Shown: positions 13,005 through 51,977 of the stretch, piece after piece
How positions within the stretch are numbered: position 1 is the first letter of the stretch
How the letters are laid out: each line of letters opens with the position of its first letter
Source: a virus
Taxonomy: Duplodnaviria > Caudoviricetes
Reading direction: 5' to 3' (one strand)
IMG/VR virus record: IMGVR_UViG_3300046733_000629
DNA length: 64,000 nt
Notes under the pieces: model-generated
What the model saw: only the letters and a program-made list of their open reading frames with translations
The model's database searches: none
What the model was told of the DNA's origin: nothing
Made by a program: the position numbers and the translations under genes

Positions 13005-13060
13005 TTAGAAAAAGTCAATTTTAAACTCATTATATGTAAGTTTTTGTTGACTTTTTCTAA
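13005..13060. repeat. Perfect 14-bp inverted repeat with a 28-nt spacer; the right arm contains the -35 box
   Basis: TTAGAAAAAGTCAA at 13005-13018 and TTGACTTTTTCTAA at 13047-13060. Confidence 0.85.
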
Positions 13061-13075
13061 ATACTATTATACAAT
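13047..13075 (+). promoter_or_regulatory. sigma70-type promoter, followed by a TAAATA at 13095-13100
   Basis: TTGACT-17-TACAAT. Confidence 0.7.
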
Positions 13076-13112: not shown

Positions 13113-13862
13113 ATGAGTACTCGAGATATTGTGCAAGACATTGTCAAGCACACAGCCGGACTAGGCTTTATTACATCAGTAAAAGTCACAGGAACTAATG
13201 AAGAAACAACACTTGATGCAATGGATGCAGATCGTACAGTGATTCTACAAGCAAAATTACACAATGCAGTTGATGATTTCAATGGTGAGTTTGGTCTAGG
13301 TAACTTAGGTTTCTTAGCAGGCATTACTTCATTAGGAAATTATCAAACAGATGATTCTACAGTAGAAGTAGTAACACGTGAACGTAATGGAGTAACAGTT
13401 CCAGATCATTTGATGTTTAAAGATGTAGAAGGTAATACAGATCAGTATCGCTTTATGTCAAAAGAAATCATTGAACAAACATTACAAACTGTAAAGTTTA
13501 AAGGTGTTGAATGGGATGTAACATTTGAACCAACAAAAGCAAAAGTAAATGAGCTACAACAAGTAGCAGGTATTTACGGAGGCATCGAACCTAACTTTAC
13601 TGTCAAGACAGTAGATGGTAATTTAGTTATTACTGTAGGCGCACAAGATGGTAGCTTCACAGGTAAACGTACATTCGCACAAAATGTAAATGGTGAGATT
13701 ACAGAAGGCTATGCATGGCCACTTAACCAAGTACTAGCAATCCTAAAACTAGGAATGTCAGGTGCATGTGTAATGCAAATTAGTAAAAAAGGTGCATTGC
13801 TTATTTCAGTTGATTCAGGCATTGGCAAATACGATTATATTTTACCAGCACTAACAGTATAG
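13113..13862 (+). CDS. Probable DNA sliding clamp (gp45/PCNA-like)
   Basis: 249 aa (PCNA-like size), two beta-rich halves, AMDADRTV near the N-terminus and C-terminal YDYILPA. Fold inferred, not searched. Confidence 0.5.
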   Translation: MSTRDIVQDIVKHTAGLGFITSVKVTGTNEETTLDAMDADRTVILQAKLHNAVDDFNGEFGLGNLGFLAGITSLGNYQTDDSTVEVVTRERNGVTVPDHLMFKDVEGNTDQYRFMSKEIIEQTLQTVKFKGVEWDVTFEPTKAKVNELQQVAGIYGGIEPNFTVKTVDGNLVITVGAQDGSFTGKRTFAQNVNGEITEGYAWPLNQVLAILKLGMSGACVMQISKKGALLISVDSGIGKYDYILPALTV

Positions 13863-13872
13863 AGAATAGAAT

Positions 13873-15372
13873 ATGGCAGATAGAAAAGACTTAACAACTA
13901 GTAATAAAGACTACAGTGTATTCTTACCGAGTATCAGTAGCTTTTATTCTAAGTTTATAGCACAAGCACAAATGCGTCCAGACTTTGTTAAGCCTGAACG
14001 TATGCCTGCAGGCTTTGAATATGGTATTGATGGCTTTGACTTTTTAAAGCCTAAAGACAATTACTATAATTACAAATGGGGTCTTTACTCTGCCGGGCAT
14101 GCTACTCGAGATACTGCTAAGAGTGATGTACAGGAACCAATGATTCAAAAGCGAGACAGGGAGAATAGTTTTATCCTTGGCGACAGTGGTGGGTTCCAGA
14201 TTGCTACAGGTGTAATCAAATGTGATTGGCCTAACTTTAAAACAGATGATGATCTGCGTAAGACAATTCTTAACTGGTTGGAACATACAGCAGATTATAG
14301 TATGGTATTAGATATTCCTACATTGGCTGCGGCACCACCGCTTAATGCTAAGACAGGATTAACTAATTGGGTTGATTGTTTAGAATATACAATGTTCAAT
14401 AATGATTACTTTGTTCGTAACAGACAAGGTAAAACTAAGTTCTTAAATGTATTACAAGGTAACAACGAGCAACAAGCAGATGATTGGTATGGTGCAGTTA
14501 AGCATTATCCATTTGAAGGTTGGGCTATGGCTGGTTACAATATGAAGCAATTACATCTTGCATTACGTAGACTTATTGTAATGCGTGATGAGAAGATGCT
14601 TGACCCAGGTAGAGATCTAATACACTACTTAGGTACAAGTAAATTAAATTGGTCGTGTATCTTTACTGCAATACAACGTAACATTAGAGAAACTATTAAT
14701 CCTAATATGATGGTAACATATGATGCCGCTAGTCCGTTTATTACAACGGCTAAAGGTCAAGCATATACACAACATGTACATAGGAACAATAAGTTTAGTT
14801 ATGTTATGGAACAGGCAGTAGATGATAAACGTTTCCAACACAGTGACATTCCTTTCCCATTTAATAGTCCAATTGGTGAACGTATGAATATGGGAGACTT
14901 ATGTTACATGGGTCCAGGTATGTTAAACAAACTTGGAAAAGAAGGCAAGACTAGTTGGGATAGTTTCTCATACTTCTTGTTAATGGCACACAATGTTTAT
15001 CAACACATTGAAGCATGTCAACGTGCTAATACACTTGCTGACATTGCAACAACCAGGTACAAGCCAAGTCACTTAGAATGGAATAAAGTGAAACCTGGAC
15101 AAAGTGAATTTGATTTATGGGTTCCACGTGATGTAATTTATGTTACAGAATTTATAAATCAATTATTTAAAAGTGAAACACCTATGCAAATGCTAGAAGA
15201 AGGTGAAGCAATGCTAACACACTTCAGTGGTATGAAAACTATTAAAACAACACAAGGTGCTTTTGATAGTTTATTTGACTCAGGTGATAATGCTCAAGAA
15301 GAAAGCGATGGCGAATTTACAGCTGAACAGGCTGAAGCGGCAGAAGATTTCTTAGAGCACCTAGAACAGTAA
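13873..15372 (+). CDS. dpdA: TGT-like 7-deazaguanine transglycosylase (DpdA-like)
   Basis: ILGDSGGFQ (TGT catalytic Asp motif), HYLGTS and YDAASP (second catalytic Asp region); lies next to QueD-like and folE genes. Confidence 0.75.
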   Translation: MADRKDLTTSNKDYSVFLPSISSFYSKFIAQAQMRPDFVKPERMPAGFEYGIDGFDFLKPKDNYYNYKWGLYSAGHATRDTAKSDVQEPMIQKRDRENSFILGDSGGFQIATGVIKCDWPNFKTDDDLRKTILNWLEHTADYSMVLDIPTLAAAPPLNAKTGLTNWVDCLEYTMFNNDYFVRNRQGKTKFLNVLQGNNEQQADDWYGAVKHYPFEGWAMAGYNMKQLHLALRRLIVMRDEKMLDPGRDLIHYLGTSKLNWSCIFTAIQRNIRETINPNMMVTYDAASPFITTAKGQAYTQHVHRNNKFSYVMEQAVDDKRFQHSDIPFPFNSPIGERMNMGDLCYMGPGMLNKLGKEGKTSWDSFSYFLLMAHNVYQHIEACQRANTLADIATTRYKPSHLEWNKVKPGQSEFDLWVPRDVIYVTEFINQLFKSETPMQMLEEGEAMLTHFSGMKTIKTTQGAFDSLFDSGDNAQEESDGEFTAEQAEAAEDFLEHLEQ

Positions 15373-15385
15373 ATGGAGGAACGTT

Positions 15386-15589
15386 ATGGGAACAGGTACA
15401 ATTAATAGTAAAAAAAGATATCTAAATAACTTAACAACCAAACATAGAATGCTTGACAAAGAAATAAATGTGTTATATAATAATCACAGTAGCGATGATA
15501 TTGTTAAAGCAAAGAAACAAGAAAAGTTACAATTGAAAGAAGCAATTGTTGCTATGGAAAATGAACTAAATCAAATAAGTAAACACTAA
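15386..15589 (+). CDS. DUF465/YdcH-like small coiled-coil protein
   Basis: LTTKHRMLDKEI...KKQEKLQLKEAI. Confidence 0.7.
   Translation: MGTGTINSKKRYLNNLTTKHRMLDKEINVLYNNHSSDDIVKAKKQEKLQLKEAIVAMENELNQISKH
15453..15481 (+). promoter_or_regulatory. Perfect sigma70 promoter embedded in the DUF465-like CDS
   Basis: TTGACA-17-TATAAT, oriented toward 15605 and the queD-like gene. Confidence 0.75.
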
Positions 15590-15604
15590 CTAGGTAATAT
15601 AGTA

Positions 15605-16135
15605 ATGAAAAGAGATTATACATCAAGCAATGACGTAACTGGCGTAACGTTCTTTGTCGGAACAGAAATTGAACATACTCCTACTTTTGGTATGAAAACA
15701 CTATTTGTAGTTGGTATGCAAGATATAGATGAAGTTAAAGAAATGGCAGAACGTAATGAAGTTGATGCTATCTATTTAGGTGCTAATCAAAGTTTTGAGA
15801 TTACTGGAGAACATGGAACTGATGCTGAACAAGAAGGTTGGGATGCATTAGTTAAGGGTTTGGTTACAGACTATTATGTAACATTAGACTTTGATTTAGA
15901 AGATGTTGATTGGATCCAAGAAAGTGGATACACTGAATATAATAATTTTATCCCAATGGTATCTGTTAAGGTTCCATACATTGAACAGTTGGGATATAAT
16001 ACTTGTATTAAATTTGATGATATTGATTTTAATGCAACAAATAAAGGAGTATGGACACACCGTCTACATTCTTTAATGGACCCTAAGAAGTTCACAAATT
16101 GGAACCAATACAAACAAGACGAAATAATTGAATAG
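15605..16135 (+). CDS. Hypothetical protein in the deazaguanine cluster
   Basis: 176-aa ORF with FFVGTEIEHTP and IYLGANQSF motifs. Confidence 0.75.
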   Translation: MKRDYTSSNDVTGVTFFVGTEIEHTPTFGMKTLFVVGMQDIDEVKEMAERNEVDAIYLGANQSFEITGEHGTDAEQEGWDALVKGLVTDYYVTLDFDLEDVDWIQESGYTEYNNFIPMVSVKVPYIEQLGYNTCIKFDDIDFNATNKGVWTHRLHSLMDPKKFTNWNQYKQDEIIE

Positions 16136-16146
16136 GAGAATATACA

Positions 16147-16341
16147 ATGCCAAAGAAAATTCGTTTAATGGATGATGCAACAGCAACAGCAACGGCTGAA
16201 GCACCAGCAACTACAACAGAAGCAGGTGCAGGCTCTGTTGATAAACAAACAGTTGATGCACTAATGAAGTATCTTGAAGCTATTGATTGGAAGCTATGGG
16301 AAATGCTTAAAATCATGAAAGCCGATCAAGAAAGTAAGTAA
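16147..16341 (+). CDS. Small hypothetical protein
   Basis: SD aggag; Ala/Thr-rich N-terminal part, then YLEAIDWKLWEM. Confidence 0.65.
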   Translation: MPKKIRLMDDATATATAEAPATTTEAGAGSVDKQTVDALMKYLEAIDWKLWEMLKIMKADQESK

Positions 16342-16342
16342 C

Positions 16343-16735
16343 ATGATTAATGTAACACAACGGCAAATCTGGGTAACATTTAGTAAGGAAGGTGTACACT
16401 TGTATCCTGCCGCTATTGATGATCCAGCACTAGCCACAGGTAAGTGGGATGACGTGTCATTCTTAGGATATGCACACAGACATATCTTTCACTTTAAAGT
16501 AGCAATTGATGTGTTCCATGATGACAGAGATATTGAATTTATTCAATTCAAACGTTGGTTGGAATCACTATATGCTAACAGCACATTAGAACTAAATCAT
16601 CGTAGTTGTGAGATGATAGCAGAGGAATTAGCACAGGAAATACACAACAAGTATCCTAATCGTTCAATTACAATTTCAGTCGCAGAGGATAATGAGAACG
16701 GTGCGACAATGACATTTAACCCAACAGAAGGATAA
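16343..16735 (+). CDS. queD: QueD-like T-fold protein (6-carboxy-5,6,7,8-tetrahydropterin synthase-like)
   Basis: H, HRH, IEF and SCEMIAE pattern typical of phage QueD-like proteins. Confidence 0.7.
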   Translation: MINVTQRQIWVTFSKEGVHLYPAAIDDPALATGKWDDVSFLGYAHRHIFHFKVAIDVFHDDRDIEFIQFKRWLESLYANSTLELNHRSCEMIAEELAQEIHNKYPNRSITISVAEDNENGATMTFNPTEG

Positions 16736-16739
16736 CGTA

Positions 16740-17099
16740 ATGTCTACAATTAAAAACGACAATAGCGTTTCAGTAAATTATTTTAAACTGGCTGGCTATT
16801 ATAACATCAATGATATTAAGTATGACCTACTTAAAATTATTGCTCCATATGATGGATACATGTATAATGAGAAAGAAACAGACAAACTCATTAGTGTATT
16901 TAACTCTTACTTGGGAGACCTTAAAAAGAGTTATAAAATCTTTAGTTATGATATTCAGACTACTGAAAAAGAAAATGCATTTACTTTTGATATTCAAATC
17001 AAAATGCAAAAAGACCGTAGCCCTAAGAAGCTAAAAATCCACGTAGGTAAACTTTGGTACGAAGTTAACAAAGCCAAAGAAGCGAGTGAGAATGCGTAA
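16740..17099 (+). CDS. Hypothetical protein
   Basis: 119-aa ORF in the operon. Confidence 0.65.
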   Translation: MSTIKNDNSVSVNYFKLAGYYNINDIKYDLLKIIAPYDGYMYNEKETDKLISVFNSYLGDLKKSYKIFSYDIQTTEKENAFTFDIQIKMQKDRSPKKLKIHVGKLWYEVNKAKEASENA

Positions 17100-18309
17100 G
17101 CTATTCTACATGGGCTTAGAACCTTATGAAGGTCGTTACACACTACAGTTACAAGACTGGAGTGAAGCGGCTTTTAAAAAACGTGGCATCGAATATGTAG
17201 TTGTTCCAGGCACTACAATCGATAATACTAAATCAATTAGTGTAGGGCAAGTACTAGATGCACATGGTAGATCATACTTTGGTATGAGTCAACTTATGAA
17301 CTTAGTACAAATGATGCGTAATGGTGAATGTAGCGGAGAAGATGTAGTATTCTTTGAAGATATGTTCCAACCTGGTATTGAAAGTTTACCATACATTATG
17401 TGTCAAGTTCCAGAAGAACAACGACCAAAGATTTATTTACGTTGTTTAGCACAAGCAGTAGACCCAGATGACTTTGTTCATGTATGGGGTATGAGCAAGT
17501 GGATGTCTTTATACGAACAAATGTGTAATGAGATTCCTAATGTACATATTCTTGCAACTAATGAAGAAATGGTTGCACATATGCGTATTGCTAATTGGAA
17601 TGCACCAATCTACAACATATCTGGTTTGAGCTTTGGCAAAGAAGAAGTTCAAAGTCGTGTTGATAATAAAATTAAGCCATGGGAAGAACGTAGCAACAGA
17701 GTAGTATTTGCGGCACGTTTTGATCAAGAGAAGCAACCAGACTTCTTTATGGATGTTATCGAAATGGTACACGAAAGAACTAAATCTTTTGATAGAGATG
17801 ACTTAACAGATAAAATTTATCCTGTAGAGTTTGCAGTACTAAGTGGAGGACCTTTACGTAGTAATAATCAAAAGTATTTAGATAGAGCTTTACAAATGGA
17901 AGCAGAAGGTAAACTTACAATTCTAAAAGATTTACAGAAGAATGATTACTATAATGTAGTTAATGATTCTAAAGTAATGTTTAATTGTGCATTGCAAGAC
18001 TGGGTATCTAATACAGTAAGTGAAGCAGATGCATTAGGTTGTAACGTAGTTTATCCTGCATACAGAAGTTTTCCAGAAACGTTTGCAAACGATCATACTA
18101 GACTTTACATGCCATGGAGTAAAGAAGATGCAGTAAGTAAAATCTTAGCAGGACTTGAAGCACCTTCTAACAACATGGGTAAGATTAGTGATTGGACAAA
18201 CGGAACTATCGATCGTATGATTGATATTATGGAAGGCAGTTATAAACATAACCAATGGTTACGTAGTGGTAACAGATATCGTGATCACGTAGCTAAGGAG
18301 AAATATTAA
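17092..18309 (+). CDS. GT-B fold glycosyltransferase
   Basis: VVFAARFDQEKQP, Y...KVMFNCALQDWVSNTVSEADALGC..VYP...SFPE (GT-B C-terminal domain signature). Confidence 0.8.
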   Translation: MRKLFYMGLEPYEGRYTLQLQDWSEAAFKKRGIEYVVVPGTTIDNTKSISVGQVLDAHGRSYFGMSQLMNLVQMMRNGECSGEDVVFFEDMFQPGIESLPYIMCQVPEEQRPKIYLRCLAQAVDPDDFVHVWGMSKWMSLYEQMCNEIPNVHILATNEEMVAHMRIANWNAPIYNISGLSFGKEEVQSRVDNKIKPWEERSNRVVFAARFDQEKQPDFFMDVIEMVHERTKSFDRDDLTDKIYPVEFAVLSGGPLRSNNQKYLDRALQMEAEGKLTILKDLQKNDYYNVVNDSKVMFNCALQDWVSNTVSEADALGCNVVYPAYRSFPETFANDHTRLYMPWSKEDAVSKILAGLEAPSNNMGKISDWTNGTIDRMIDIMEGSYKHNQWLRSGNRYRDHVAKEKY

Positions 18310-18310
18310 T

Positions 18311-19273
18311 ATGAAAGTACTAGTAACAGGAGCAGGTGGATATATTGGTTCACAAACATGTAAGACATTATATAACAAAGGATATCATGTCGTAGGTGTT
18401 GATAGAAACAGGATTAAACATAGCTATTGTAAAACTGTTTATTCAGGAAATTACAGTGACTACGCCGTGCAAGCGTTACTACTTGATATTGATTGCGTAG
18501 TTCATATTGGAGCAACCAGTTTAGTTGGACCTAGTGTTTTAGACCCTAGTAAGTACTATAACAACAATGTTGCAAGTACACTTGAACTACTTGATGCATG
18601 TAAAAATCAAGGCGTTAATCGTTTTGTTTTTGCAAGCAGTGCGGCAACTTATGGTGAGCCAGAGGAAGATGTATGTAATGAAAAAGAAATACATGAACCT
18701 GTAAACCCATATGGTTGGAGCAAACGTATGACTGAGATTATGTTAAAAGATTATGCAACTGCATATGGAATTAACAGTGTCAGTTTACGTTTCTTTAACG
18801 TAGCTGGTGCAGACTTAGATGGTGAGTTTGGACAAGAAAAAGCGGCTACACATATTATTGCTAAACTTATGGAAATGACTATGGCTGGCAAAGACTTTAC
18901 ATTAAATGGAGATAGTTTTAATACACCAGACGGAACTTGTGTTAGAGATTATGTACATGTAGATGATGTAGCACGTGGTATAGCTATGGCAGTAGACTTC
19001 ACACAATTTAAAAATGATGCTTATGTATTTAACTTAGGCAACGGTGAAGGATACAGTAACATGGATATTGTAAAAGCAGTTGAAGATCATACACCATTAA
19101 AACCTGTTATTCATACAGGACCTGCTAGAGCAGGAGATCCTGCAAAGCTAGTAGCAGATAGTGAACTAGCAAATAAACTATTGCAATGGAAGCCAAACTA
19201 TGGACTTGACACAATAGTTAAGACAGCATACAATTATTATTTAAAAACAAATAAAACGACATCCTCGTCGTAA
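18311..19273 (+). CDS. galE: UDP-glucose 4-epimerase
   Basis: VLVTGAGGYIGS, FASSAATYG, YGWSK (YxxxK), LRFFNVAG, GTCVRDYVHV, RAGDP. Confidence 0.9.
   Translation: MKVLVTGAGGYIGSQTCKTLYNKGYHVVGVDRNRIKHSYCKTVYSGNYSDYAVQALLLDIDCVVHIGATSLVGPSVLDPSKYYNNNVASTLELLDACKNQGVNRFVFASSAATYGEPEEDVCNEKEIHEPVNPYGWSKRMTEIMLKDYATAYGINSVSLRFFNVAGADLDGEFGQEKAATHIIAKLMEMTMAGKDFTLNGDSFNTPDGTCVRDYVHVDDVARGIAMAVDFTQFKNDAYVFNLGNGEGYSNMDIVKAVEDHTPLKPVIHTGPARAGDPAKLVADSELANKLLQWKPNYGLDTIVKTAYNYYLKTNKTTSSS
19206..19234 (+). promoter_or_regulatory. sigma70 promoter embedded in the galE 3' end, upstream of folE
   Basis: TTGACA-17-TACAAT. Confidence 0.65.
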
Positions 19274-19281
19274 ACTCGGAG
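19256..19281 (+). promoter_or_regulatory. Hairpin, possibly a small pseudoknot, next to the folE Shine-Dalgarno
   Basis: Stem ACGAC/GTCGT, loop ATCCTC, then AAACTC and the SD GGAG. Confidence 0.4.
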
Positions 19282-19287
19282 AACAAA

Positions 19288-19977
19288 ATGAGTAAAAGTA
19301 AAGAAATTAAGGCCCGTTTGCAGGACGCAAACATTCGTCATTGGGCAGGCGACAACATTTCAGAAGTCTTACAACAAGGCGACAAAGAAGCACTAATTGA
19401 AGATGCCACAGTAGCATTTGAAAACGTTCTTGATACATTATTAATTGACAGACATAACGATCCTAATTCAATGGGTACAGCAAGGCGCCTAGCTAAAATG
19501 TACTACAATGAAATTATGGCAGGACGTTATGATCCTGCTCCTGGTGCAACAGCATTTCCTAATGACAGCGATGATCGATATGAAGGTATGCTAGTAGTAC
19601 GTAGTGAACTTAAAAGCATGTGTTCGCATCACCATCAGCCAGTAGCAGGTATTGCATACATTGGTATTATTGCCGCAGACAAACTAATTGGTTTAAGCAA
19701 GTACACACGTATTGCACAATGGTGTTCTAGACGTGGTACACTACAAGAAGAACTTGCTAACGACATTGTACGTGAAATTCAAAAAGCAACAGATGCAAAA
19801 CACTTAGGTGTATATATTCAAGCAACACATGGTTGTTGTGAGAACAGAGGTATTATGGCAACTAGCAGTCTTACACAGACAACTGTACTAAAAGGTGCAT
19901 TCAAAGATGATCCTGGTACAAAGAAAGAGTTTATGGATAACATTAAACTACAACAATCATATGCGAGTGGAAAATAA
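19288..19977 (+). CDS. folE: GTP cyclohydrolase I
   Basis: TARRLAKMY, SMCSHHH, IGLSKYTRI, LQEEL, HGCCENRG. Confidence 0.95.
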   Translation: MSKSKEIKARLQDANIRHWAGDNISEVLQQGDKEALIEDATVAFENVLDTLLIDRHNDPNSMGTARRLAKMYYNEIMAGRYDPAPGATAFPNDSDDRYEGMLVVRSELKSMCSHHHQPVAGIAYIGIIAADKLIGLSKYTRIAQWCSRRGTLQEELANDIVREIQKATDAKHLGVYIQATHGCCENRGIMATSSLTQTTVLKGAFKDDPGTKKEFMDNIKLQQSYASGK

Positions 19978-19978
19978 A

Positions 19979-20482
19979 ATGGTGAACAAAGTATATTATA
20001 CATGGAAAGATATTGAACATATGGTTAACACTGTTAACAATCTTATGTTTGCAGACAATTGGCGTCCTGACTACATTGTAGGAATGACACGTGGTGGATT
20101 AGTACCAGCAGTCATTATGTCTAACATTACAGGAATTAAAATGCATGCGTTAGATGTGCGTTTCCGTGATGGAGACTCTCAAGAATCAAATTCTTGGATG
20201 GCTGAAGATGCACATTCAGGTAAAAACATTCTTGTGTTTGATGACATTAATGATAGTGGTAAAACTATGCAATGGGTTAAAGATGATTGGCCATCGGGTT
20301 GTTATCCAGGTAGTGCTTGGGATAATGTTTGGGGTAATAATGTTAGGTTTGCCTCATTACTTGACAACCAAGCAAGTGACTTTGGCGAAGTAGATTACAC
20401 AGCTATGGAAATTAATAAAATGGAAAAGGATGTATGGGTAGTATTTCCTTGGGAAGGTGAGCGAGATTATGGAAACTTCTGA
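19979..20482 (+). CDS. Purine phosphoribosyltransferase (Gpt-like)
   Basis: IVGMTRGGLVPA, LVFDDINDSGKT (PRPP loop), WVVFPWE; likely start at ATG 19979. Confidence 0.85.
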   Translation: MVNKVYYTWKDIEHMVNTVNNLMFADNWRPDYIVGMTRGGLVPAVIMSNITGIKMHALDVRFRDGDSQESNSWMAEDAHSGKNILVFDDINDSGKTMQWVKDDWPSGCYPGSAWDNVWGNNVRFASLLDNQASDFGEVDYTAMEINKMEKDVWVVFPWEGERDYGNF

Positions 20483-21419: not shown

Positions 21420-24110
21420 ATGAAGAAACTATTAGCAACATTTATTATTGCTATATCACTTTCAACAAGTGCATATGCTGGCAATTTTAAAAGCTATTAT
21501 GATTATGCAAGTAATCTAAATAGCGGGCTACAAATTAGCTTTTCTACGTCAATGATTAATAATTATACACGTAGTAACAAAATGTACAAAAACTTGATTG
21601 ACAAGTACGATCATATGTTTTCAAAGTACGGCTGGTTTCAAACTATGAAAGAACGTTATGCGTTCCAACTATCCGAGATCAATAAATTTCAACAATTAAT
21701 TAACGTTAAAGAAGCACAAGTAACTCTTGTAAACACAACTTATAAGGTTACAACTGGTGTTGTTGTAAGGCGTGGTGCAACTACTCTTACAAACGAATCT
21801 ACAAAAGTTGTTGAAGAAACATCTGGCAATATAGTTAAAGAGTTTGCAGTAGTTACTAAAGTTTATAGTACTCCTATTAGAAAAGATTATTGGGAAAATA
21901 CTAATACTATTACTCATTACAGTGATGGTACTACAGGTAGTTCTAATAGTAACAAAATTACAAAAACTACGAACGAAGTTGAAACTGATTCTAAAGTTGA
22001 AAGAGAACTTATCAGAGAATATGCTTTAGTCATACCAGAAGAAGATAACAAGGTAGTTGACAATGCAGACATTAAAATTCTAACTGAGGCAGAATACTTA
22101 GCTAGAAATGATGTTACTCTGTTTGAAACAGAAACATATAATGAAGCAGTTTGGAATATGAACAGTAGAATTAATGAATGGTATACTGTTAATATTTTAT
22201 CTAAAAATTATGCTAACCACTTAGAACAAATTGGTGCACCAGCCGCTTGGGCTAGAGGATACACAGGTAAAGGTAGTACAATTGCTATACTTGATACTGG
22301 TATAGACATGGACCATACTGAGTTTGAAGGCAAGATTAAAGGTGCAGAATGTTTTACAGGACTATGTAAAAATGGACATGAAACAATACATGACGCAAAT
22401 AGATTCTCACACGGAACACATGTTGCAAGTATTGCGGCAGGTAACTTAGACGGCAACGGTACAACAGGTGTTGCACCAGATGCAGACTTGTTAATTGCTA
22501 AGACAGCATGGAACTTTGGATCGTTTGATTTTAGTGTAGCAGATGAAGCAATTGCTTGGGCCGTAAACAACGGAGCAGATGTAATTAACATCAGTGCTAA
22601 CTATATGTTTGATAGAACATACATCAATAGTATAGAAGAGATTTCTCCGGGTATGTATAAGTCAACAGATACAAGAGGACGTAATGGTAAAACATATGAC
22701 AAGTTTGGATATGCGGCACTAGCAGACAGCGATCTTTATTACAAAGATATTGTTGAATCAATGAAAGGTCACGAAGCGGTACTAGTATTGTCAGCAGGTA
22801 ACCAAGGAACAGATGTTGCAGGTCAGCCTAGTTTTATTGCACTAGACGAAGAAGTTGGTGATAGGGTTTTGATTGTTGGTAACTATGATGCACGTCAAGG
22901 TGACATATATAGGCTTTCTAATAAAGCAGGTACTATGTGTTTTGAGGTTAATGTAGATGGTAGTTGTGCAACAAACAAACGAATCAGTGATAGCTTTATA
23001 CTTGCACCAGGTAGGTATGTAGCAGGTGCTGATGCAAATGGTGAGTATAGAACTAACAGTGGAACGTCACAGTCGGCTCCTATGGTATCAGGTGCAGTTG
23101 CAATTGTACATCAAATGTGGCCACATATGACAGGTGCTAACTTAACTAAACTATTGTTAAATACTGCTAATAAGGATCTTCCTAACTATGATGAGAATGT
23201 ACATGGTCAAGGATTGTTAGACTTAGATGCGGCAACACTTCCACAAGGTGCTATTGGTCTTCCTACTACAGGTAGAGCAGAAGGTGGTACTATAAATATT
23301 GGAAGCAGTGGTACTATTGCAATGTCAGGTAATGCTACAATTTCAGCATTGTCACAAACAATGGTAATTGATGATTACGATAGGGATTATTACTTTGATG
23401 CTAACACTATGGTACAAATTAATGACACAAGAACTGCAAGTGCTACATCGTCAGCATTGTATGGATTTACTCCAGACTACTATATTGGGTACAATGGTGG
23501 TACTATTATCCCAATGACAAATGGTGGTACACATATTGCACTTAATGAAGATAACAATAATGTAAGTATTGTACAAAAGTATGAAGGGTTTACATTGGGT
23601 CTTGTTAATGAACAAGGTAGCTTCTTAGGTAACATTGCTGATAGTGAACTTATGAAAGTTACCGGAGCAGAAACTGCATACTTAGGTTACAGTTTTGATA
23701 ACGGTAATGTGTTTGGTAGTGCAACACTAGGAGCAACTAAACTAGATGTAGACAGTAGTTCAATGCTTAAGAGTGCAGACATTATGATGTCTAACAGTGC
23801 AACACTAGGTATTAAGCAAACTGTAGACAGTAGCACATTTGGATTTGTAGCAAGTGTACCAGTTAGTATTACTAGCGGTGATGCACACTTTGATGTTCCA
23901 TCAAGTATAAGTAGTGATGGAAATATTAACAATTCAGAAATGAGTAGTTCGATGAAAGCTGATAAAAGAGAAGTTGACTTTGGAATGTTTTATAACTTCA
24001 ATCCAACAGATACAACTGCATTTACGGCTAACGTAGAACTTAGAACTAATTACGCAGGTACAAGCGAAGATACAGTAAGTGCAGGCGTTACATATAGGAT
24101 AATGTTTTAA
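21420..24110 (+). CDS. Subtilisin-family (S8) serine protease with signal peptide and probable C-terminal beta-barrel (autotransporter-like)
   Basis: AILDTGID, HGTHVASIAAG, SGTSQSAPMVSG (D/H/S triad); N-terminal MKKLL...SAYA; C-terminal AGVTYRIMF. Confidence 0.9.
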   Translation: MKKLLATFIIAISLSTSAYAGNFKSYYDYASNLNSGLQISFSTSMINNYTRSNKMYKNLIDKYDHMFSKYGWFQTMKERYAFQLSEINKFQQLINVKEAQVTLVNTTYKVTTGVVVRRGATTLTNESTKVVEETSGNIVKEFAVVTKVYSTPIRKDYWENTNTITHYSDGTTGSSNSNKITKTTNEVETDSKVERELIREYALVIPEEDNKVVDNADIKILTEAEYLARNDVTLFETETYNEAVWNMNSRINEWYTVNILSKNYANHLEQIGAPAAWARGYTGKGSTIAILDTGIDMDHTEFEGKIKGAECFTGLCKNGHETIHDANRFSHGTHVASIAAGNLDGNGTTGVAPDADLLIAKTAWNFGSFDFSVADEAIAWAVNNGADVINISANYMFDRTYINSIEEISPGMYKSTDTRGRNGKTYDKFGYAALADSDLYYKDIVESMKGHEAVLVLSAGNQGTDVAGQPSFIALDEEVGDRVLIVGNYDARQGDIYRLSNKAGTMCFEVNVDGSCATNKRISDSFILAPGRYVAGADANGEYRTNSGTSQSAPMVSGAVAIVHQMWPHMTGANLTKLLLNTANKDLPNYDENVHGQGLLDLDAATLPQGAIGLPTTGRAEGGTINIGSSGTIAMSGNATISALSQTMVIDDYDRDYYFDANTMVQINDTRTASATSSALYGFTPDYYIGYNGGTIIPMTNGGTHIALNEDNNNVSIVQKYEGFTLGLVNEQGSFLGNIADSELMKVTGAETAYLGYSFDNGNVFGSATLGATKLDVDSSSMLKSADIMMSNSATLGIKQTVDSSTFGFVASVPVSITSGDAHFDVPSSISSDGNINNSEMSSSMKADKREVDFGMFYNFNPTDTTAFTANVELRTNYAGTSEDTVSAGVTYRIMF

Positions 24111-24694
24111 TGGCAGGAAACAAATACAAAACATATACAAGGGGCAAGCTAGAAGTAATAGCTGGCCCTATGTTTGCAGGAAAGAGCAGTGAGCTTTTAA
24201 AAAGGCTCCTGTTCATTGAACATGGTGGGCATAAAGTATTAGTACTTAAACCTATTATTGATGATCGTTATGAGAGTAATTTTATCGTAACACACAATCA
24301 ATTAAAACACCCGGCTGTGGCTGTAATAGATTTAGAATTAGTAAAAGATAATTACACAATTAAACCTTATAACTTTCACACAGTATTCATTGACGAAGTA
24401 CAGTTTTTTGATAATAAAGAAACTATGTGGTTTATTGAAGAAGGATTAAGAGAAGGTGTTAATTTTGTTGTAGCAGGTTTAGATCAAGATAGTAGAGGTG
24501 TTCCATTTGAAACTACATCGAGGTGTTTAGCACTAGCAGATGAAGTTATAAAGATTAGAGCATTCTGTACAATATGTGGAATGGATGCAGGTAAGACACA
24601 ACGTCTGCGAGCAACTAAACATTCTGATAGAGTAAAGGTAGGTGGTAGTGAAACATACGAACCACGTTGCCATGAACATTGGGAGAGCAAGTAA
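24110..24694 (+). CDS. tdk: Thymidine kinase
   Basis: GPMFAGKS, FIDEVQFF, VAGLD, C..C, VGGSETYEPRC..H. Confidence 0.95.
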   Translation: MAGNKYKTYTRGKLEVIAGPMFAGKSSELLKRLLFIEHGGHKVLVLKPIIDDRYESNFIVTHNQLKHPAVAVIDLELVKDNYTIKPYNFHTVFIDEVQFFDNKETMWFIEEGLREGVNFVVAGLDQDSRGVPFETTSRCLALADEVIKIRAFCTICGMDAGKTQRLRATKHSDRVKVGGSETYEPRCHEHWESK

Positions 24695-25002: not shown

Positions 25003-25003
25003 A

Positions 25004-25453: not shown

Positions 25454-25457
25454 TTAA

Positions 25458-25794: not shown

Positions 25795-25797
25795 ATA
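25791..25797 (+). promoter_or_regulatory. Late-promoter-like CTAAATA, 5 nt before the ATG
   Basis: TAAATA at 25792-25797, ATG at 25803, no SD. Confidence 0.5.
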
Positions 25798-25802
25798 CAT
25801 AC

Positions 25803-26811: not shown

Positions 26812-28194
26812 ATGACAAAAGCAATAGTCGTGCTTGCAGACTCAAAACAAGCAAAGAAACTTGGTGCACCAGTTAAACGTGCATCAGCAAACTTAGAAAA
26901 AAGTGTAGACATATCGTTTGCACATGAAGAATATGATTACATTACTGTAATTGAAACTAAACCTAAAACAGCAAACGATGCTCGTGAACTAGGTGGAGAT
27001 ATGTTTAGCAAGTATAAAAAAATAGCTACTACATTAGAACTTGATGATGCATTAGGTTTTAGTAATGACATTCTCGAAGGAATTGACTTAGCAGGATACA
27101 CATTTAATAAGTACAAAACAGATTCAAAAGATATTAAATTAGATTCTGTAACTATTAATAGCAAAAGCATTGATGAAGTTAAACAAAGTATTTCAGGTAG
27201 TATCAATTTTGCACGTGACTTAGTATCAGAACCAGGTAACGTATTATATCCACAAACATATGCGGCACGTATTCAACGTAACTTATCACCAACTGGTATA
27301 ACAGTAAAACTATATCATGAATCACAACTAAAAGAAATGGGACTTAACTTATTATTAAGTGTAGGACAAGGTAGTGAGAAAGATAGTTATGTAGTTGTTA
27401 TGGAACACATGAACGGCAAAGAAGGCGAACAGCCAATTGCATTAGTAGGTAAAGGTGTTACATTTGATACAGGTGGTATTAGTTTGAAACCAGGACGCAA
27501 CATGGGCGATATGAAATACGACATGGGCGGTAGTGCCGCAGTAGTAGGTGCTATGCATGCAATTGGTACACAAAAGATTAAACGTAACGTAGTAGGTATT
27601 GTAGGCTTAGTAGAGAACATGCCAGACGGTAAAGCAATTAAGCCAGGTGATGTAGTTACTTCACTTAGTGGACAGACTGTAGAAAATTTAAATACAGATG
27701 CAGAAGGTAGACTTGTACTTGCAGATATATTAACATATGTACAAAAAGAATATAACCCATATGTGATAGTTGATCTAGCAACACTAACAGGTGCAATTGT
27801 AGCGGCTCTTGGTCATGAAATGGCAGGACTATTTACTAACTCAAGTGATTTAGAATTTGCAATTGATGATGCAGGTAAAGTATCTGGAGAAGGATTCTAT
27901 CGTATGCCAATGGGTTCTAACTATGCAAAAATGATTAAATCTCCAATTGCAGATATGCAAAACATTGGCGGACCATATGCAGGATCAACAACAGCCGCAG
28001 AGTTTTTATACAAATTTGTAGATAACAAAACAGCATGGGCTCACTTAGATATTGCAGGTATGGCTTGGGAAGAAAAAGGTAAACCAGTTACTCCTAAAGG
28101 TGCGGCAGGATTTGGTGTACGTACATTATTTAATCTTGTTAACAGTGTACCTAATAAACAATCGCTTGAAATTGATAAGGATATGGATTACTAA
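26812..28194 (+). CDS. pepA: Leucyl aminopeptidase (M17)
   Basis: LVGKGVTFDTGGISLKP, MKYDMGG, NTDAEGRLVLAD, DLATLTGA, WAHLDIAG. Confidence 0.95.
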   Translation: MTKAIVVLADSKQAKKLGAPVKRASANLEKSVDISFAHEEYDYITVIETKPKTANDARELGGDMFSKYKKIATTLELDDALGFSNDILEGIDLAGYTFNKYKTDSKDIKLDSVTINSKSIDEVKQSISGSINFARDLVSEPGNVLYPQTYAARIQRNLSPTGITVKLYHESQLKEMGLNLLLSVGQGSEKDSYVVVMEHMNGKEGEQPIALVGKGVTFDTGGISLKPGRNMGDMKYDMGGSAAVVGAMHAIGTQKIKRNVVGIVGLVENMPDGKAIKPGDVVTSLSGQTVENLNTDAEGRLVLADILTYVQKEYNPYVIVDLATLTGAIVAALGHEMAGLFTNSSDLEFAIDDAGKVSGEGFYRMPMGSNYAKMIKSPIADMQNIGGPYAGSTTAAEFLYKFVDNKTAWAHLDIAGMAWEEKGKPVTPKGAAGFGVRTLFNLVNSVPNKQSLEIDKDMDY

Positions 28195-28955
28195 TGGCAA
28201 ACACAATAGCAGTATTTGGTTGTGGCTTCGTTGGTGGAACTGTAGCAAATTACTTAGAAGAACATGGAACTAAGGTTATAAGAGTAGATCCAAAACTATA
28301 TCCATTTCAAGATCCATATGATGCAGTTTTTGATTCAGATGGTATAGTAATTGCAGTACCAACTCCAAGTAAAGATGATGGTACATGTGATGATAGTATG
28401 ATTACAAAAGTATTATCTTACTGTGATGCTCGTTCAAAGGTATTGATTAAAAGCACAGTAACACCAGACTTGCTACAGAATTATGATGTAAATGTAGTAT
28501 ACAACCCTGAGTTCTTAAGAGAAGCACATGCAAAAGAAGACTTTGAAAATCAACATACATTTGTATTAGGACATCATAAGCATAATGAACCAGATGCAAA
28601 ATGGTGGGCAGAAGTATTTCAAATTGATGCATCAAAGTGTATATTTACAAATAGACGTACTGCAAGCATGATCAAATACACACATAATTCGTGGTTAGCA
28701 ACAAAAGTTGCATGGTTTCATGAGCTATATGATAATCTACCACCAGAAGTTGACTATGACGCTATTACTAGTGCCTTGGGTAGATTTCCTACAGTAGGAT
28801 CGACACATATGCAAGCGCCAAACTCAGAGGGCGGCCTAGGATATAGTGGTGCTTGTTTTCCTAAAGATGTAAAAGCCTTGACAAATGTCGTAAATCATAG
28901 TATACTTAGTAAAGTTAAAGAAACAAATAATAAACTAAACTCTAAAGGAGAATAA
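28194..28955 (+). CDS. UDP-glucose/GDP-mannose dehydrogenase family protein, short form
   Basis: IAVFGCGFVG, IAVPTP, IKSTV.P, NPEFLRE, GYSGACFPKD; the usual C-terminal domain is absent. Confidence 0.85.
   Translation: MANTIAVFGCGFVGGTVANYLEEHGTKVIRVDPKLYPFQDPYDAVFDSDGIVIAVPTPSKDDGTCDDSMITKVLSYCDARSKVLIKSTVTPDLLQNYDVNVVYNPEFLREAHAKEDFENQHTFVLGHHKHNEPDAKWWAEVFQIDASKCIFTNRRTASMIKYTHNSWLATKVAWFHELYDNLPPEVDYDAITSALGRFPTVGSTHMQAPNSEGGLGYSGACFPKDVKALTNVVNHSILSKVKETNNKLNSKGE
28878..28906 (+). promoter_or_regulatory. sigma70 promoter embedded in the dehydrogenase 3' end
   Basis: TTGACA-17-TATACT, upstream of 28956 and queE. Confidence 0.65.
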
Positions 28956-29453: not shown

Positions 29454-29468
29454 TAACAGGAGAAAACA

Positions 29469-30365
29469 TTGGATAAGCTAAGGTATAGTGAAGCTTTCTA
29501 TTCGGTACAAGGTGAAGGTAAATTTGTAGGAGTGCCTAGTGTATTCCTACGTACATTTGGTTGTAACTTTCGTTGCATGAACTTTGGAGTAGATACAAAG
29601 AAAGATCGTTGGGAACAACATGCAGAAGGTAACAGGTATAATGCAGAAGTAAAAGGTTTGCTTGATGCAGGTGTACATAAACAAGAAATTGAATTTGAAC
29701 AGTTACCTATTGTACATACAGGTTGTGATACTTATGCAAGTATCTATCCTGAATTTAAACATTTTAATAAACAAGCTACAATTGATGAAGTTGTAGAACA
29801 TCTTCTATCGTTAACACCTAATGGTAAGTGGGTACAAGACAATGGGCAAGATGTACATCTTATTTTAACAGGCGGCGAACCATTGCTTGCTTGGCAAAGA
29901 TTATATATTGATCTTTTTAACCACCCACGTATGAAGGATTTAAAAAATGTTACATTTGAAACAAACACTACACAAAAATTACATGCAGATTTTGCAGAGT
30001 ATCTCAACAATCAAGACAGAATCAAAGTCACTTGGAGTTGTTCCCCAAAACTTAGTGTTAGCGGAGAACGTTGGGAAGATGCTATTAAACCTAGTGTGGC
30101 TAATGAATATATTAGTGTTAACGATAGTGACATGTATCTTAAGTTTGTTGTCGCTAGTGAAGATGATTTTAACGAAGTCAAAAAAGCTGTTAGTGCTTAT
30201 CAGAGTTCCGGGGTACAATGTCCAGTATATCTTATGCCGCTTGGCGGACGTAGTGAAGAATACTCCCTTAACGTTAAAGACGTGGCTGAAGCGTGTATGG
30301 CAGAAGGTTGGAGGTTCACACCAAGACTCCACATCAGTCTCTTCGGAAACGCCTGGGGAACATAA
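29469..30365 (+). CDS. queE: 7-carboxy-7-deazaguanine synthase (radical SAM)
   Basis: EAFYSVQGEG, VFLRTFGCNFRC, GCDT, LTGGEPL, FETN, SPKL, PRLH; TTG start with SD aggag. Confidence 0.93.
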   Translation: MDKLRYSEAFYSVQGEGKFVGVPSVFLRTFGCNFRCMNFGVDTKKDRWEQHAEGNRYNAEVKGLLDAGVHKQEIEFEQLPIVHTGCDTYASIYPEFKHFNKQATIDEVVEHLLSLTPNGKWVQDNGQDVHLILTGGEPLLAWQRLYIDLFNHPRMKDLKNVTFETNTTQKLHADFAEYLNNQDRIKVTWSCSPKLSVSGERWEDAIKPSVANEYISVNDSDMYLKFVVASEDDFNEVKKAVSAYQSSGVQCPVYLMPLGGRSEEYSLNVKDVAEACMAEGWRFTPRLHISLFGNAWGT

Positions 30366-48522: not shown

Positions 48523-48527
48523 TGCAG

Positions 48528-51976: not shown

Positions 51977-51977
51977 T

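What the first reader, a model, noticed from the sequence alone, without database searches (positions are those of the whole stretch)
13873..20482. 7-deazaguanine DNA-modification cluster with an embedded glycosyltransferase, GalE and purine PRTase: candidate new (glycosylated or CDG-derived) base
Seen: dpdA-like, DUF465, unknown, small, queD-like, unknown, GT-B, galE, folE and gpt-like genes in one co-oriented run, with queE at 29469 and no queC in the window. Established: FolE, QueD and QueE convert GTP to CDG; QueC makes preQ0; phage DpdA proteins exchange guanine in DNA for 7-deazaguanines to evade restriction. Inference: the GT and UDP-sugar epimerase sit between queD and folE, so they may add a sugar to the inserted base, a derivative I do not know to be described. 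The PRTase may recycle the guanine released by base exchange or activate the deazaguanine to a nucleotide.
Basis: partly seen in the sequence, partly recalled or inferred. Interest (0 to 1): 0.85.

Follow-up and report, generated by a model that had tools for sequence, protein, structure and literature searches.

The report
Deazaguanine DNA cluster with built-in glycosyltransferase
A marine jumbo phage carries the genes that replace guanine in its DNA with 7-deazaguanine, and a sugar-transferring enzyme with its own sugar-supply gene sits inside that gene set in many unrelated phages, which points to a sugar-bearing purine in DNA that has not been described.

Summary
Window 13873-20482 is one co-oriented, tightly packed run. 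It encodes a transglycosylase with a confirmed TGT fold (DpdA-like), DUF465, three unknown proteins, a QueD-like T-fold protein, a GT-B glycosyltransferase, GalE, FolE and an XGPRT-like phosphoribosyltransferase. QueE lies at 29469. No QueC is present.

One correction: the "queD-like" gene is DpdL, the proposed 7-carboxy-7-deazaguanine decarboxylase of Cellulophaga phage phiST. It is not QueD, and no canonical QueD lies in the window. The expected base is therefore 7-deazaguanine (dDG), not CDG or preQ0.

The glycosyltransferase belongs to the system:
- All 14 phage DpdA clusters with enough flank carry both this GT family and DpdL.
- In cultured phages the GT sits inside deazaguanine clusters in the PA5oct group, Phosso, ACP17, X1/BUDD, BCSR5 and BUCT-ZZ01.
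- Phages with QueC (pf16) lack the GT.
- The sugar-nucleotide genes beside the GT change with lineage: GalE, a sugar dehydrogenase, or an NDP-heptose-like set.

No paper in the searched library describes a glycosylated deazaguanine in DNA. The chemistry is untested. Other reports of this scan reached the same reading on other phage DNA. Verdict: a new variant of a known system, of high interest, and testable by mass spectrometry on existing phages.

The parts
13047..13075 (+). sigma-70-like promoter match (10 of 12) upstream of the clamp-like gene
   Evidence: a consensus match only
13113..13862 (+). 249-aa sliding-clamp-like protein, directly upstream of the transglycosylase gene in nearly all relatives
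   Evidence: phrog_12062. Atlas look-alikes are PCNA/gp45 clamp clusters at 0.93-0.98. The Phosso homologue is annotated as a sliding clamp. Adjacent to the DpdA-like gene in 101 loci.
13873..15372 (+). DpdA-like DNA-guanine transglycosylase (TGT superfamily, distinct subfamily, 499 aa)
   Evidence: Model pLDDT 91. The top 50 PDB folds are all TGT. Invariant D104, S105, G107, D147, H251, G254 and D284 align with TGT D102, D156 and D280. hhalign to the ACP17, BUDD and BUCT-ZZ01 DpdA gives prob 95-97%.
15386..15589 (+). DUF465 small protein
   Evidence: Pfam 29.2 bits; present in 56 related loci
15453..15481 (+). perfect sigma-70 consensus (TTGACA-17-TATAAT) upstream of the p176-to-GalE run
   Evidence: a consensus match only
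15605..16135 (+). p176, conserved protein of unknown function in the core module
   Evidence: 85 loci. The ACP17 homologue scores E 2.6e-41. No Pfam or PDB sequence hit. Only weak GT-A-like Atlas leads.
16147..16341 (+). 64-aa conserved small protein
   Evidence: 35 loci
16343..16735 (+). DpdL (QueD paralogue; proposed CDG decarboxylase giving 7-deazaguanine)
   Evidence: Motif LGYAHRHIF matches LxxxHRHxF (PMC10516641). The family HMM hits phiST CGPG_00067 at E 3.8e-26. No PTPS Pfam hit. phrog_17812.
16740..17099 (+). 119-aa conserved protein of unknown function
   Evidence: 33 loci
17086..18309 (+). GT4-like (retaining-type) GT-B glycosyltransferase
   Evidence: Pfam at threshold. Model pLDDT 84. 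The nearest folds are glycogen synthase, BshA, MshA and PimA. Invariant R211, K216, E313 and E331. One HMM family that includes the PA5oct, ACP17, BUDD, BUCT-ZZ01, Phosso and BCSR5 genes.
18311..19273 (+). GalE, UDP-glucose 4-epimerase
   Evidence: TIGR01179 at 295.6 bits, above the cut-off
19206..19234 (+). sigma-70-like promoter match (11 of 12) inside the 3' end of galE, upstream of folE
   Evidence: a consensus match only
19288..19977 (+). FolE, GTP cyclohydrolase I
   Evidence: Pfam 129.7 bits
19979..20482 (+). XGPRT-like 6-oxopurine phosphoribosyltransferase (the ORF is open from 19895; the likely start is near 19961-19979)
   Evidence: Pribosyltran 42.6 bits. NF006613 at 59 bits, below its cut-off. 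PDB sequence hits are 1vdm and E. coli Gpt.
28194..28955 (+). short NDP-sugar dehydrogenase-like protein (253 aa, lacks both ends of the family model)
   Evidence: In other lineages its homologue lies directly after the GT.
29469..30365 (+). QueE-like 7-carboxy-7-deazaguanine synthase
   Evidence: Hits five QueE NCBIfam models, all below their cut-offs. 40% identical to the BUCT-ZZ01 QueE and 30% to the PA5oct QueE.

Best explanation
This is a replication-linked 7-deazaguanine DNA hypermodification system of a marine jumbo phage related to Pseudomonas phage PA5oct.

Inferred from established family functions: FolE, a QueD encoded outside the window or supplied by the host, and QueE turn GTP into 7-carboxy-7-deazaguanine. 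DpdL removes the carboxyl group to give 7-deazaguanine. The TGT-fold DpdA-like enzyme, encoded next to the sliding-clamp gene, exchanges guanine in phage DNA for that base.

Inferred from gene neighbourhood only: the conserved GT4-like glycosyltransferase then puts a sugar on the deazaguanine, either in DNA or on the free base before insertion. Its donor would be a UDP-hexose that GalE supplies here. Other lineages supply other sugars. The product would be a glycosylated 7-deazaguanine that blocks restriction enzymes and other DNA-targeting defences.

The XGPRT-like enzyme most likely returns the expelled guanine to GMP and then GTP, which feeds the pathway.

Shown here: the folds, motifs, family memberships and the conserved linkage. 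Not shown: any enzymatic activity, the acceptor atom, or the final base.
For: - TGT fold and conserved catalytic Asp pair of the 499-aa protein.
- Homology to DpdA of other deazaguanine phages.
- DpdL membership.
- No QueC in the window, in the complete genomes of PA5oct and BUCT-ZZ01, or in five related 99-184 kb contigs.
- GT and DpdL occur together in all 14 phage DpdA clusters with at least 7 kb of flank.
- Starting from the GT instead, the PA5oct group, Phosso, ACP17, X1/BUDD, BCSR5 and BUCT-ZZ01 all hold it between or beside DpdA, DpdL, FolE and QueE.
- pf16, which has QueC and no DpdL, lacks the GT. phiST has DpdL without the GT. This places the GT downstream of DpdL.
- The residues expected to bind the nucleotide-sugar donor are invariant.
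- The genes beside the GT are sugar-nucleotide genes that differ by lineage: GalE, a sugar dehydrogenase, GHMP kinase plus nucleotidyltransferase, or SIS plus nucleotidyltransferase/HAD plus GHMP kinase.
- PA5oct DNA resists restriction enzymes whose sites contain G, and nucleases that sense modified G target it. Its base has not been identified (PMC12191111).
- A GT-B enzyme that glycosylates a free 7-deazapurine base is known from huimycin biosynthesis (bioRxiv 10.64898/2026.04.15.718813).
Against: - No chemical data exist for this phage or any GT-bearing relative.
- After decarboxylation, 7-deazaguanine has no hydroxyl or carboxyl group. GT4-type enzymes usually make O-glycosides.
- phiST reaches complete dDG replacement without this GT.
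- The structural neighbours of the GT act on small molecules, not DNA. Known phage DNA glucosyltransferases are not its closest folds.
- No canonical QueD lies in the window.
- The decarboxylase activity of DpdL is itself only proposed, and its reconstitution failed (PMC10516641).
Confidence: 0.55

Rival explanations
1. The DNA carries plain 7-deazaguanine (dDG), as in phiST. The GT and GalE glycosylate something other than the base, such as a virion or replication protein, a host envelope polymer or a small metabolite. They sit in the cluster only because early counter-defence genes travel together.
For: phiST makes dDG without a GT. The nearest GT folds act on small-molecule or lipid acceptors. 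A distant member of the GT family in PhiXhv-type phages sits with GlmS and a deacetylase, not with deazaguanine genes.
Against: The GT is interleaved between DpdA, DpdL and QueE in lineages that share little else. It is found with DpdL in 14 of 14 clusters and is absent from phages with QueC. Plain co-travel would not keep this order across DpdA subfamilies.
Confidence: 0.2
2. The pathway runs at nucleotide level, as in tubercidin and toyocamycin biosynthesis. The PRTase joins CDG or 7-deazaguanine to PRPP. The ribotide is then converted to a dNTP and incorporated by the polymerase, or it becomes a free nucleoside-type product that the GT decorates. The TGT-like enzyme plays a secondary role.
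For: A PRTase is kept in the cluster in 10 of 15 clusters, and in PA5oct and BUCT-ZZ01. Tubercidin clusters combine CDG synthesis without QueC with a PRTase, a decarboxylase and a GMP reductase. A GMP-reductase/IMPDH-like gene lies between FolE and the PRTase in L065. phiST has a P-loop kinase-like gene and MazG in its cluster.
Against: The PRTase is closest to guanine/xanthine salvage enzymes. The transglycosylase keeps all its catalytic residues and is the most conserved gene of the module. Guanine salvage alone explains both the PRTase and a GMP reductase in an AT-rich phage.
Confidence: 0.12
3. FolE, the T-fold protein and the GT make a pterin glycoside, as the cyanobacterial biopterin glucosyltransferase does, and not a DNA base.
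For: UDP-glucose:tetrahydrobiopterin glucosyltransferase is among the structural neighbours of the GT, at rank 15. The T-fold protein is a PTPS paralogue.
Against: QueE and a DpdA-type transglycosylase are always present. The T-fold protein belongs to the DpdL family of a phage with proven dDG. The pterin GT is no closer than many other GT4 enzymes.
Confidence: 0.05
4. The TGT-like enzyme modifies tRNA, not DNA.
For: Its fold is that of the tRNA-guanine transglycosylases.
Against: It sits beside the DNA polymerase and clamp genes. The profile shows no conserved zinc-site cysteines of tRNA TGTs. It is homologous to the DpdA of deazaguanine-DNA phages. PA5oct DNA behaves as G-modified.
Confidence: 0.03

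Closest known systems
DpdA3/DpdL system of Cellulophaga phage phiST (dDG fully replaces dG; Cui et al. 2023, PMC10516641)
   Same: Both have FolE and QueE without QueC. Both have a DpdL of the same family (HMM E 3.8e-26) and a TGT-superfamily DNA transglycosylase. The expected base is 7-deazaguanine.
   Different: The window's transglycosylase is 499 aa and shows no sequence-level match to the 259-aa phiST DpdA3. The window has a GT, GalE, a PRTase, p176 and a clamp linkage, all of which phiST lacks. phiST has MazG and a kinase-like gene, which the window lacks.
Pseudomonas jumbo phage PA5oct (Wroclawvirus) locus EST35_0314-0322
   Same: The gene set is the same: clamp-like, DpdA-like (38% identity), GT family, DpdL (58%), PRTase and QueE. 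PA5oct DNA behaves as G-modified (PMC12191111).
   Different: Its GT is a different subtype (20% identity). It has no full GalE, only a 172-aa fragment-like gene. FolE and two PTPS genes lie 55 kb away. The genes are annotated as hypothetical, and the base has not been identified.
DpdA2-type clusters with DpdL in Acidovorax phage ACP17, Xanthomonas phages BUDD/X1, Burkholderia phage BCSR5 and phage BUCT-ZZ01
   Same: DpdL and the same GT family lie between DpdA, FolE and QueE. ACP17 also has p176. The BUCT-ZZ01 GT is 70% identical to the window's.
   Different: Their DpdA is of another subfamily, related only at profile level with E 1e-8 to 1e-10. They are T4-like rather than jumbo genomes.
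T-even phage DNA glucosyltransferases (alpha- and beta-GT on hydroxymethylcytosine)
   Same: Both are phage GT-B enzymes. Both use NDP-sugars, presumably to hide DNA from nucleases, and the sugar chemistry varies by lineage.
   Different: The T-even acceptor is a hydroxymethyl pyrimidine. The families differ, and these enzymes are not among the closest folds. No hydroxymethylase was seen in the cluster.
HuiG of huimycin biosynthesis and the tubercidin PRTase TubE (7-deazapurine natural products)
   Same: Huimycin gives a precedent for a GT-B enzyme that glycosylates a 7-deazapurine base. Tubercidin gives a precedent for a PRTase acting on CDG in a pathway without QueC.
   Different: Both are actinomycete secondary metabolism acting on free bases or nucleotides, with no DNA insertion. 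Homology to the phage genes was not tested here.

Membership tests
DpdA (TGT-superfamily DNA-guanine transglycosylase) | TGT (beta/alpha)8 fold | tested here: met
   pLDDT 91. The top 50 PDB matches are all TGT, prob 1.00. Atlas rows with the TGT and DpdA Pfam families reach TM 0.81-0.83 by the row.
DpdA (TGT-superfamily DNA-guanine transglycosylase) | Catalytic Asp pair and base-binding Asp/Gln (Z. mobilis TGT D102, D280, D156, Q203) | tested here: met
   D104, D147 and D284 are invariant in 63 sequences. The motif NVLQG aligns with GIQQG of TGT.
DpdA (TGT-superfamily DNA-guanine transglycosylase) | Match to the Pfam TGT or DpdA models at the gathering score | tested here: not met
   No Pfam hit for the window protein. 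Only 2 of 63 relatives touch PF01702, at E 0.006.
DpdA (TGT-superfamily DNA-guanine transglycosylase) | Exchanges guanine in DNA for a 7-deazaguanine | not testable with these tools
   Indirect only: the gene context, and the restriction resistance of PA5oct.
DpdA3 subfamily (phiST CGPG_00065 type) | Sequence relationship to phiST DpdA3 | tested here: not met
   The family HMM gives E 0.26 against phiST DpdA3. The lengths are 499 and 259 aa.
DpdL (proposed CDG decarboxylase) | Signature LxxxHRHxF in place of the QueD signature CxxxHGH | tested here: met
   LGYAHRHIF at residues 41-49.
DpdL (proposed CDG decarboxylase) | Homology to phiST CGPG_00067 | tested here: met
   HMM E 3.8e-26, 80.5 bits.
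DpdL (proposed CDG decarboxylase) | Occurs with DpdA, FolE and QueE and without QueC | tested here: met
DpdL (proposed CDG decarboxylase) | Decarboxylates CDG | not testable with these tools
   Only proposed in the source paper, where reconstitution failed.
QueD (PTPS-I, CPH4 synthase) | CxxxHGH motif and Pfam PTPS match | tested here: not met
   Leu replaces the Cys. There is no PF01242 hit. An HMM of relatives' PTPS gives E 0.85.
GT4-like GT-B glycosyltransferase | GT-B two-Rossmann fold | tested here: met
   pLDDT 84. Foldseek prob 1.00 to glycogen synthase, BshA, MshA and PimA.
GT4-like GT-B glycosyltransferase | Conserved Arg/Lys phosphate-binding pair and Glu of the C-terminal donor-binding motif | tested here: inconclusive
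   R211, K216, E313 and E331 are invariant across the family, cultured phages included. Their assignment to these roles is by analogy, not by superposition.
GT4-like GT-B glycosyltransferase | Pfam Glycos_transf_1 at the gathering score | tested here: met
   26.7 bits against 26.4, which is marginal.
GalE (UDP-glucose 4-epimerase) | NCBIfam equivalog TIGR01179 above its cut-off | tested here: met
   295.6 bits against 262.3.
XGPRT (gpt-type 6-oxopurine phosphoribosyltransferase) | Equivalog model above its cut-off | tested here: not met
   NF006613 scores 59 bits against a cut-off of 138. The general PRTase domain passes. The nearest PDB sequences are purine PRTs and E. coli Gpt.
QueE (CDG synthase) | QueE equivalog models above their cut-offs | tested here: not met
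   Five QueE models hit at E 1e-8 to 1e-14, all below their cut-offs. The family HMM links it to annotated phage QueE genes.

The most novel reading that the evidence does not exclude
These phages carry the first glycosylated purine in DNA. The base would be 7-deazaguanine bearing a sugar that differs between lineages: a hexose via GalE here, a uronic acid or a heptose elsewhere. It would be made by a four-gene core (p176, DpdA, GT, DpdL) that works at the replication fork through the sliding clamp.
Probability: 0.45. Interest if true: 0.9.

Novelty: new variant of a known kind. Interest (0 to 1): 0.78.

Why it matters
Sugar-bearing bases in DNA are known only for pyrimidines: glucosyl- and arabinosyl-hydroxymethylcytosine, and base J. 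A glycosylated deazapurine would be a new class of natural DNA base.

The gene set is very widespread. It comprises over 7,700 transglycosylase homologues and 942 clusters at 50% identity, mostly in marine and freshwater jumbo phages. It also occurs in therapy-relevant Pseudomonas phages of the PA5oct group, whose modified G has not been identified.

The finding may also explain why dDG could not be reconstituted from DpdA and DpdL alone, since conserved partners (GT, p176) were left out. It offers new enzymes for DNA labelling. The question can be tested directly on phages already in culture.

Tried and rejected
- Megablast of the region against phage genomes found no match.
- No whole genome is held for the window. 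QueC and QueD were therefore sought in the complete genomes of relatives and in long contigs instead.
- The phiST DpdA3 shows no sequence-level match to the window's family, so DpdA3 membership was rejected.
- p176 has no Pfam hit and no PDB sequence hit, even with a 44-sequence profile. The Atlas gave only weak GT-A-like leads below 0.9.
- A clamp-family profile against PDB sequences found nothing. The clamp reading rests on Atlas look-alikes and on the Phosso annotation.
- Complex prediction of the clamp with DpdA residues 440-499 scored 0.55, against a best control of 0.00. The runs agree in at least 55% of contacts, and the partner pLDDT is at least 44. The mark was reached by 51 of 78 solved complexes and 2 of 108 mismatched pairs. 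At 0.60 or under, only 5 solved complexes and all 4 passing mismatches are found. This counts as weak support only.
- The search for related loci with the 63-sequence alignment failed because no stretch was conserved enough. A 10-sequence alignment worked.
- Literature searches for DpdA with phosphoribosyltransferase, and for deazaguanine with hexose, returned nothing. The supplements of Cui 2023 are not held, and the MMBR review is not held.
- The radical SAM cluster at 47-64 kb was considered as part of the pathway. It was left aside, because it is separate in the window and was not tested for linkage.

Full report
WHAT IS THERE

The window has 34% G+C and is almost wholly coded on the + strand. 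No whole genome is held for it, and no phage record matches it at the DNA level.

From 13113 to 20482 the ORFs follow each other with gaps of 1-15 bp or short overlaps. In order they are:
- a 249-aa protein
- a 499-aa protein
- DUF465
- proteins of 176, 64, 130 and 119 aa
- a 407-aa glycosyltransferase
- GalE
- FolE
- a phosphoribosyltransferase

A QueE-like gene lies at 29469-30365. A short NDP-sugar dehydrogenase-like gene lies at 28194-28955, and a SAM synthetase gene at 31106.

Three near-perfect sigma-70 consensus sites precede the units clamp-DpdA, p176-to-GalE and FolE-PRT. These are consensus matches only.

THE TRANSGLYCOSYLASE

The 499-aa protein has no Pfam, NCBIfam or PHROG match. 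It does carry GDSGGFQ.

Its family is very large:
- More than 7,700 proteins score E <= 1e-3 among the 8,000 scored.
- The 50% identity library holds 942 representatives.
- Most come from aquatic metagenomes, on contigs of up to 344 kb.

In 63 diverse members S73, D104, S105, G107, D147, P149, H251, G254 and D284 never vary. A profile of these sequences hits only tRNA-guanine transglycosylases among PDB sequences, weakly (E about 0.1). The register is exact:
- D104 falls on Z. mobilis D102.
- D147 falls on D156.
- NVLQG falls on GIQQG.

The AlphaFold2 model has pLDDT 91 and pTM 0.90. Its 50 best PDB fold matches are all TGTs, with prob 1.00 and E about 3e-7. Viral TGT and DpdA clusters of the ESM Atlas match it at TM 0.81-0.83 by the row.

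Profile-profile comparison links the family to three other proteins:

| Protein | hhalign probability | E-value |
|---|---|---|
| ACP17 DpdA | 96.9% | 1.9e-10 |
| BUDD "queuine tRNA-ribosyltransferase" | 96.2% | 2.3e-09 |
| BUCT-ZZ01 416-aa protein | 95.3% | 2.1e-08 |

The family does not match the 259-aa DpdA3 of phiST at sequence level. I read it as a distinct DpdA subfamily.

THE T-FOLD GENE IS DpdL, NOT QueD

The 130-aa protein has no PTPS hit. It carries LGYAHRHIF.

Cui et al. 2023 define DpdL, the proposed CDG decarboxylase of phiST, by the change of the QueD signature CxxxHGH to LxxxHRHxF (PMC10516641). An HMM built from the window's family hits phiST DpdL at E 3.8e-26. The alignment shows shared blocks along the whole length.

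No canonical QueD lies in the window, either by an HMM of relatives' PTPS or by tblastn with three phage QueD proteins. Close relatives carry one, in two different slots that are empty here. PA5oct has two and BUCT-ZZ01 one.

QueC is absent from the window. It is also absent from the complete genomes of PA5oct and BUCT-ZZ01 and from five related contigs of 99-184 kb.

The pathway therefore ends at CDG and, through DpdL, at 7-deazaguanine. This is the base shown to replace all G in phiST.

THE GLYCOSYLTRANSFERASE

Pfam places the GT at the threshold of Glycos_transf_1. The model (pLDDT 84) is a GT-B fold. Its nearest solved structures are retaining GT4/GT5 enzymes: glycogen synthase, BshA, MshA and PimA. 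In the viral structure library the second-best match is the ACP17 homologue.

E12, R17, Y18, D92, D126, D129, E144, R211, K216, E313 and E331 are invariant in 41 diverse members. They are also kept in PA5oct, BUCT-ZZ01 and ACP17, and all but one (D126) in BUDD. The family therefore looks catalytically intact.

LINKAGE

I collected 116 loci and labelled their ORFs with iteratively built HMMs.

Downstream of the DpdA-like gene the usual order is (DUF465), p176, DpdL, GT, (GalE or a sugar dehydrogenase), FolE, PRTase, QueE. The clamp-like gene lies directly upstream.

After clustering the transglycosylases at 70% identity, 15 clusters have enough flank. Fourteen of them hold both the GT and DpdL. 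The one without either is a bacterial island with integrases. Two truncated loci (L050, L051) lack both together.

I also ran the test in reverse, starting from the GT. The family occurs in these cultured phages, each time beside DpdL and FolE or QueE:
- the PA5oct group (11 records)
- Phosso
- ACP17
- X1/BUDD
- BCSR5
- BUCT-ZZ01

.

A more distant group, the PhiXhv/Ep0xx phages (24% identity), holds its gene with GlmS and a deacetylase instead.

pf16 has QueC and no DpdL, and it has no GT. phiST has DpdL but no GT. The GT therefore depends on DpdL, and DpdL does not depend on the GT. This places the GT after the decarboxylation step.

THE SUGAR SUPPLY VARIES

The gene after the GT differs by lineage:
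- GalE in the window's clade and several others
- a short sugar dehydrogenase
- GHMP kinase plus nucleotidyltransferase plus HIT (L038)
- SIS isomerase, a nucleotidyltransferase/HAD fusion and GHMP kinase, which is the gene set of an NDP-heptose pathway (L114)

The GT itself comes in two subtypes that are about 20% identical. They occupy the same slot in phages whose flanking genes are 55-78% identical. The window's subtype is usually followed by GalE.

The window's GT is 70% identical to that of BUCT-ZZ01, although the other shared genes are only 28-40% identical. The GT allele therefore moves between phages. This pattern resembles the diversification of DNA sugars in T-even phages. The comparison rests on my own knowledge.

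THE PHOSPHORIBOSYLTRANSFERASE

The PRTase passes the general PRTase model. It is closest to xanthine/guanine salvage enzymes, but below their curated cut-offs. In PA5oct its homologue lies directly before QueE.

Two readings fit:
- It salvages the guanine expelled by base exchange back to GMP and GTP, the precursor of the pathway. I prefer this reading because of the enzyme's nearest relatives.
- It forms a deazaguanine ribotide, as in tubercidin and toyocamycin biosynthesis.

A GMP-reductase/IMPDH-like gene lies between FolE and the PRTase in L065. It is compatible with both readings.

LINK TO REPLICATION

The 249-aa gene upstream looks like a sliding clamp. Atlas look-alikes are PCNA and gp45 clusters at 0.93-0.98. 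The Phosso homologue is annotated as a clamp.

In several loci the DNA polymerase gene precedes it.

The acidic tail of the transglycosylase holds a conserved SLF in a low-confidence linker. A complex prediction of the clamp with residues 440-499 scored 0.55, against a best control of 0.00. By the tool's own calibration this is weak support. I therefore treat coupling to the replication fork as a lead only.

LITERATURE

The searched library holds no paper that combines DpdA with a phosphoribosyltransferase, or deazaguanine DNA with a hexose.

Cui et al. 2023 mention neither the GT nor the PRTase. They report that dDG could not be reconstituted from DpdA and DpdL of phiST or ACP17, and they suggest that other enzymes may be needed.

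PA5oct DNA resists enzymes with G in their sites, and nucleases that sense modified G target it. The base was not identified (PMC12191111).

A GT-B enzyme that glycosylates a free 7-deazapurine base is known from huimycin biosynthesis.

EARLIER NOTES OF THIS SCAN

First readers and two follow-up reports on freshwater jumbo phages reached the same reading on other DNA. I reached mine from my own tests before seeing them.

VERDICT

I put 0.55 on a glycosylated deazaguanine as the product of this system. I put 0.2 on plain dDG with the GT serving another target. The rest goes to nucleotide-level, pterin or tRNA readings.

Noticed in passing
window 13113-13862: A 249-aa sliding-clamp-like gene lies directly upstream of the DpdA-like gene in about 100 related loci. 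The DpdA C-terminal tail has a conserved SLF motif. The complex prediction gave only weak support (0.55 against a best control of 0.00).
   Followed up: partly
window 24679-25802 and 29453-29469: Close relatives carry a canonical QueD (PTPS) in one of two slots: between thymidine kinase and a radical SAM gene, or between the glycine-zipper gene and QueE. Both slots lack it in the window, so QueD seems to move or to be lost between near-identical phages.
   Followed up: partly
L114:9323-12074 and L038:12843-15138: Directly after the GT, other lineages carry an NDP-heptose-like gene set (SIS, a nucleotidyltransferase/HAD fusion, GHMP kinase) or GHMP kinase plus nucleotidyltransferase plus HIT, where the window has GalE.
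   Followed up: partly
L065:11808-12851 (also L100:8748-9797): In L065 an IMPDH/GMP-reductase-like gene (Pfam E 1.9e-70) lies between FolE and the PRTase, which recalls the toyocamycin and tubercidin pathways or purine salvage. L100 has an ORF of similar size in the same slot that was not scanned.
   Followed up: no
L039:6210-11613: A bacterial island holds a 32%-identical DpdA-like gene between two integrase genes. With it are a 509-aa unknown protein and an OGG-family glycosylase, next to a GAP1/DO-GTPase defence-like system. No deazaguanine synthesis genes are nearby.
   Followed up: no
window 47143-64000: A dense run of at least six radical SAM or SPASM genes, a PNP_UDP_1 nucleosidase-like gene and an aminotransferase-like gene. 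Another first-reader note reports similar genes in one operon with the GT in a different genome.
   Followed up: partly
window 17086-18309 compared with L001:9001-10167: The GT is 70% identical to that of 'Synechococcus phage BUCT-ZZ01', while DpdL, FolE, PRTase and QueE are 28-40% identical. This suggests recent exchange of the GT allele between unrelated phages.
   Followed up: partly
L119:8382-8861 (phiST CGPG_00066): The phiST gene between DpdA3 and DpdL, described as unique in the source paper, has a Walker-A-like motif (GEICSGKDT) and looks like a small P-loop kinase. This hints at a nucleotide-level step in that phage.
   Followed up: no
window 21420-24110, 26812-28194, 30717-31109, 31106-32203: The same region holds a large S8 subtilase, an M17 leucyl aminopeptidase, SufE and a SAM synthetase. 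SufE and MetK could serve the many radical SAM enzymes.
   Followed up: no
window 28194-28955: The NDP-sugar dehydrogenase-like gene is only 253 aa and lacks both ends of the family model. The same short form is conserved in relatives and often lies right after the GT.
   Followed up: partly
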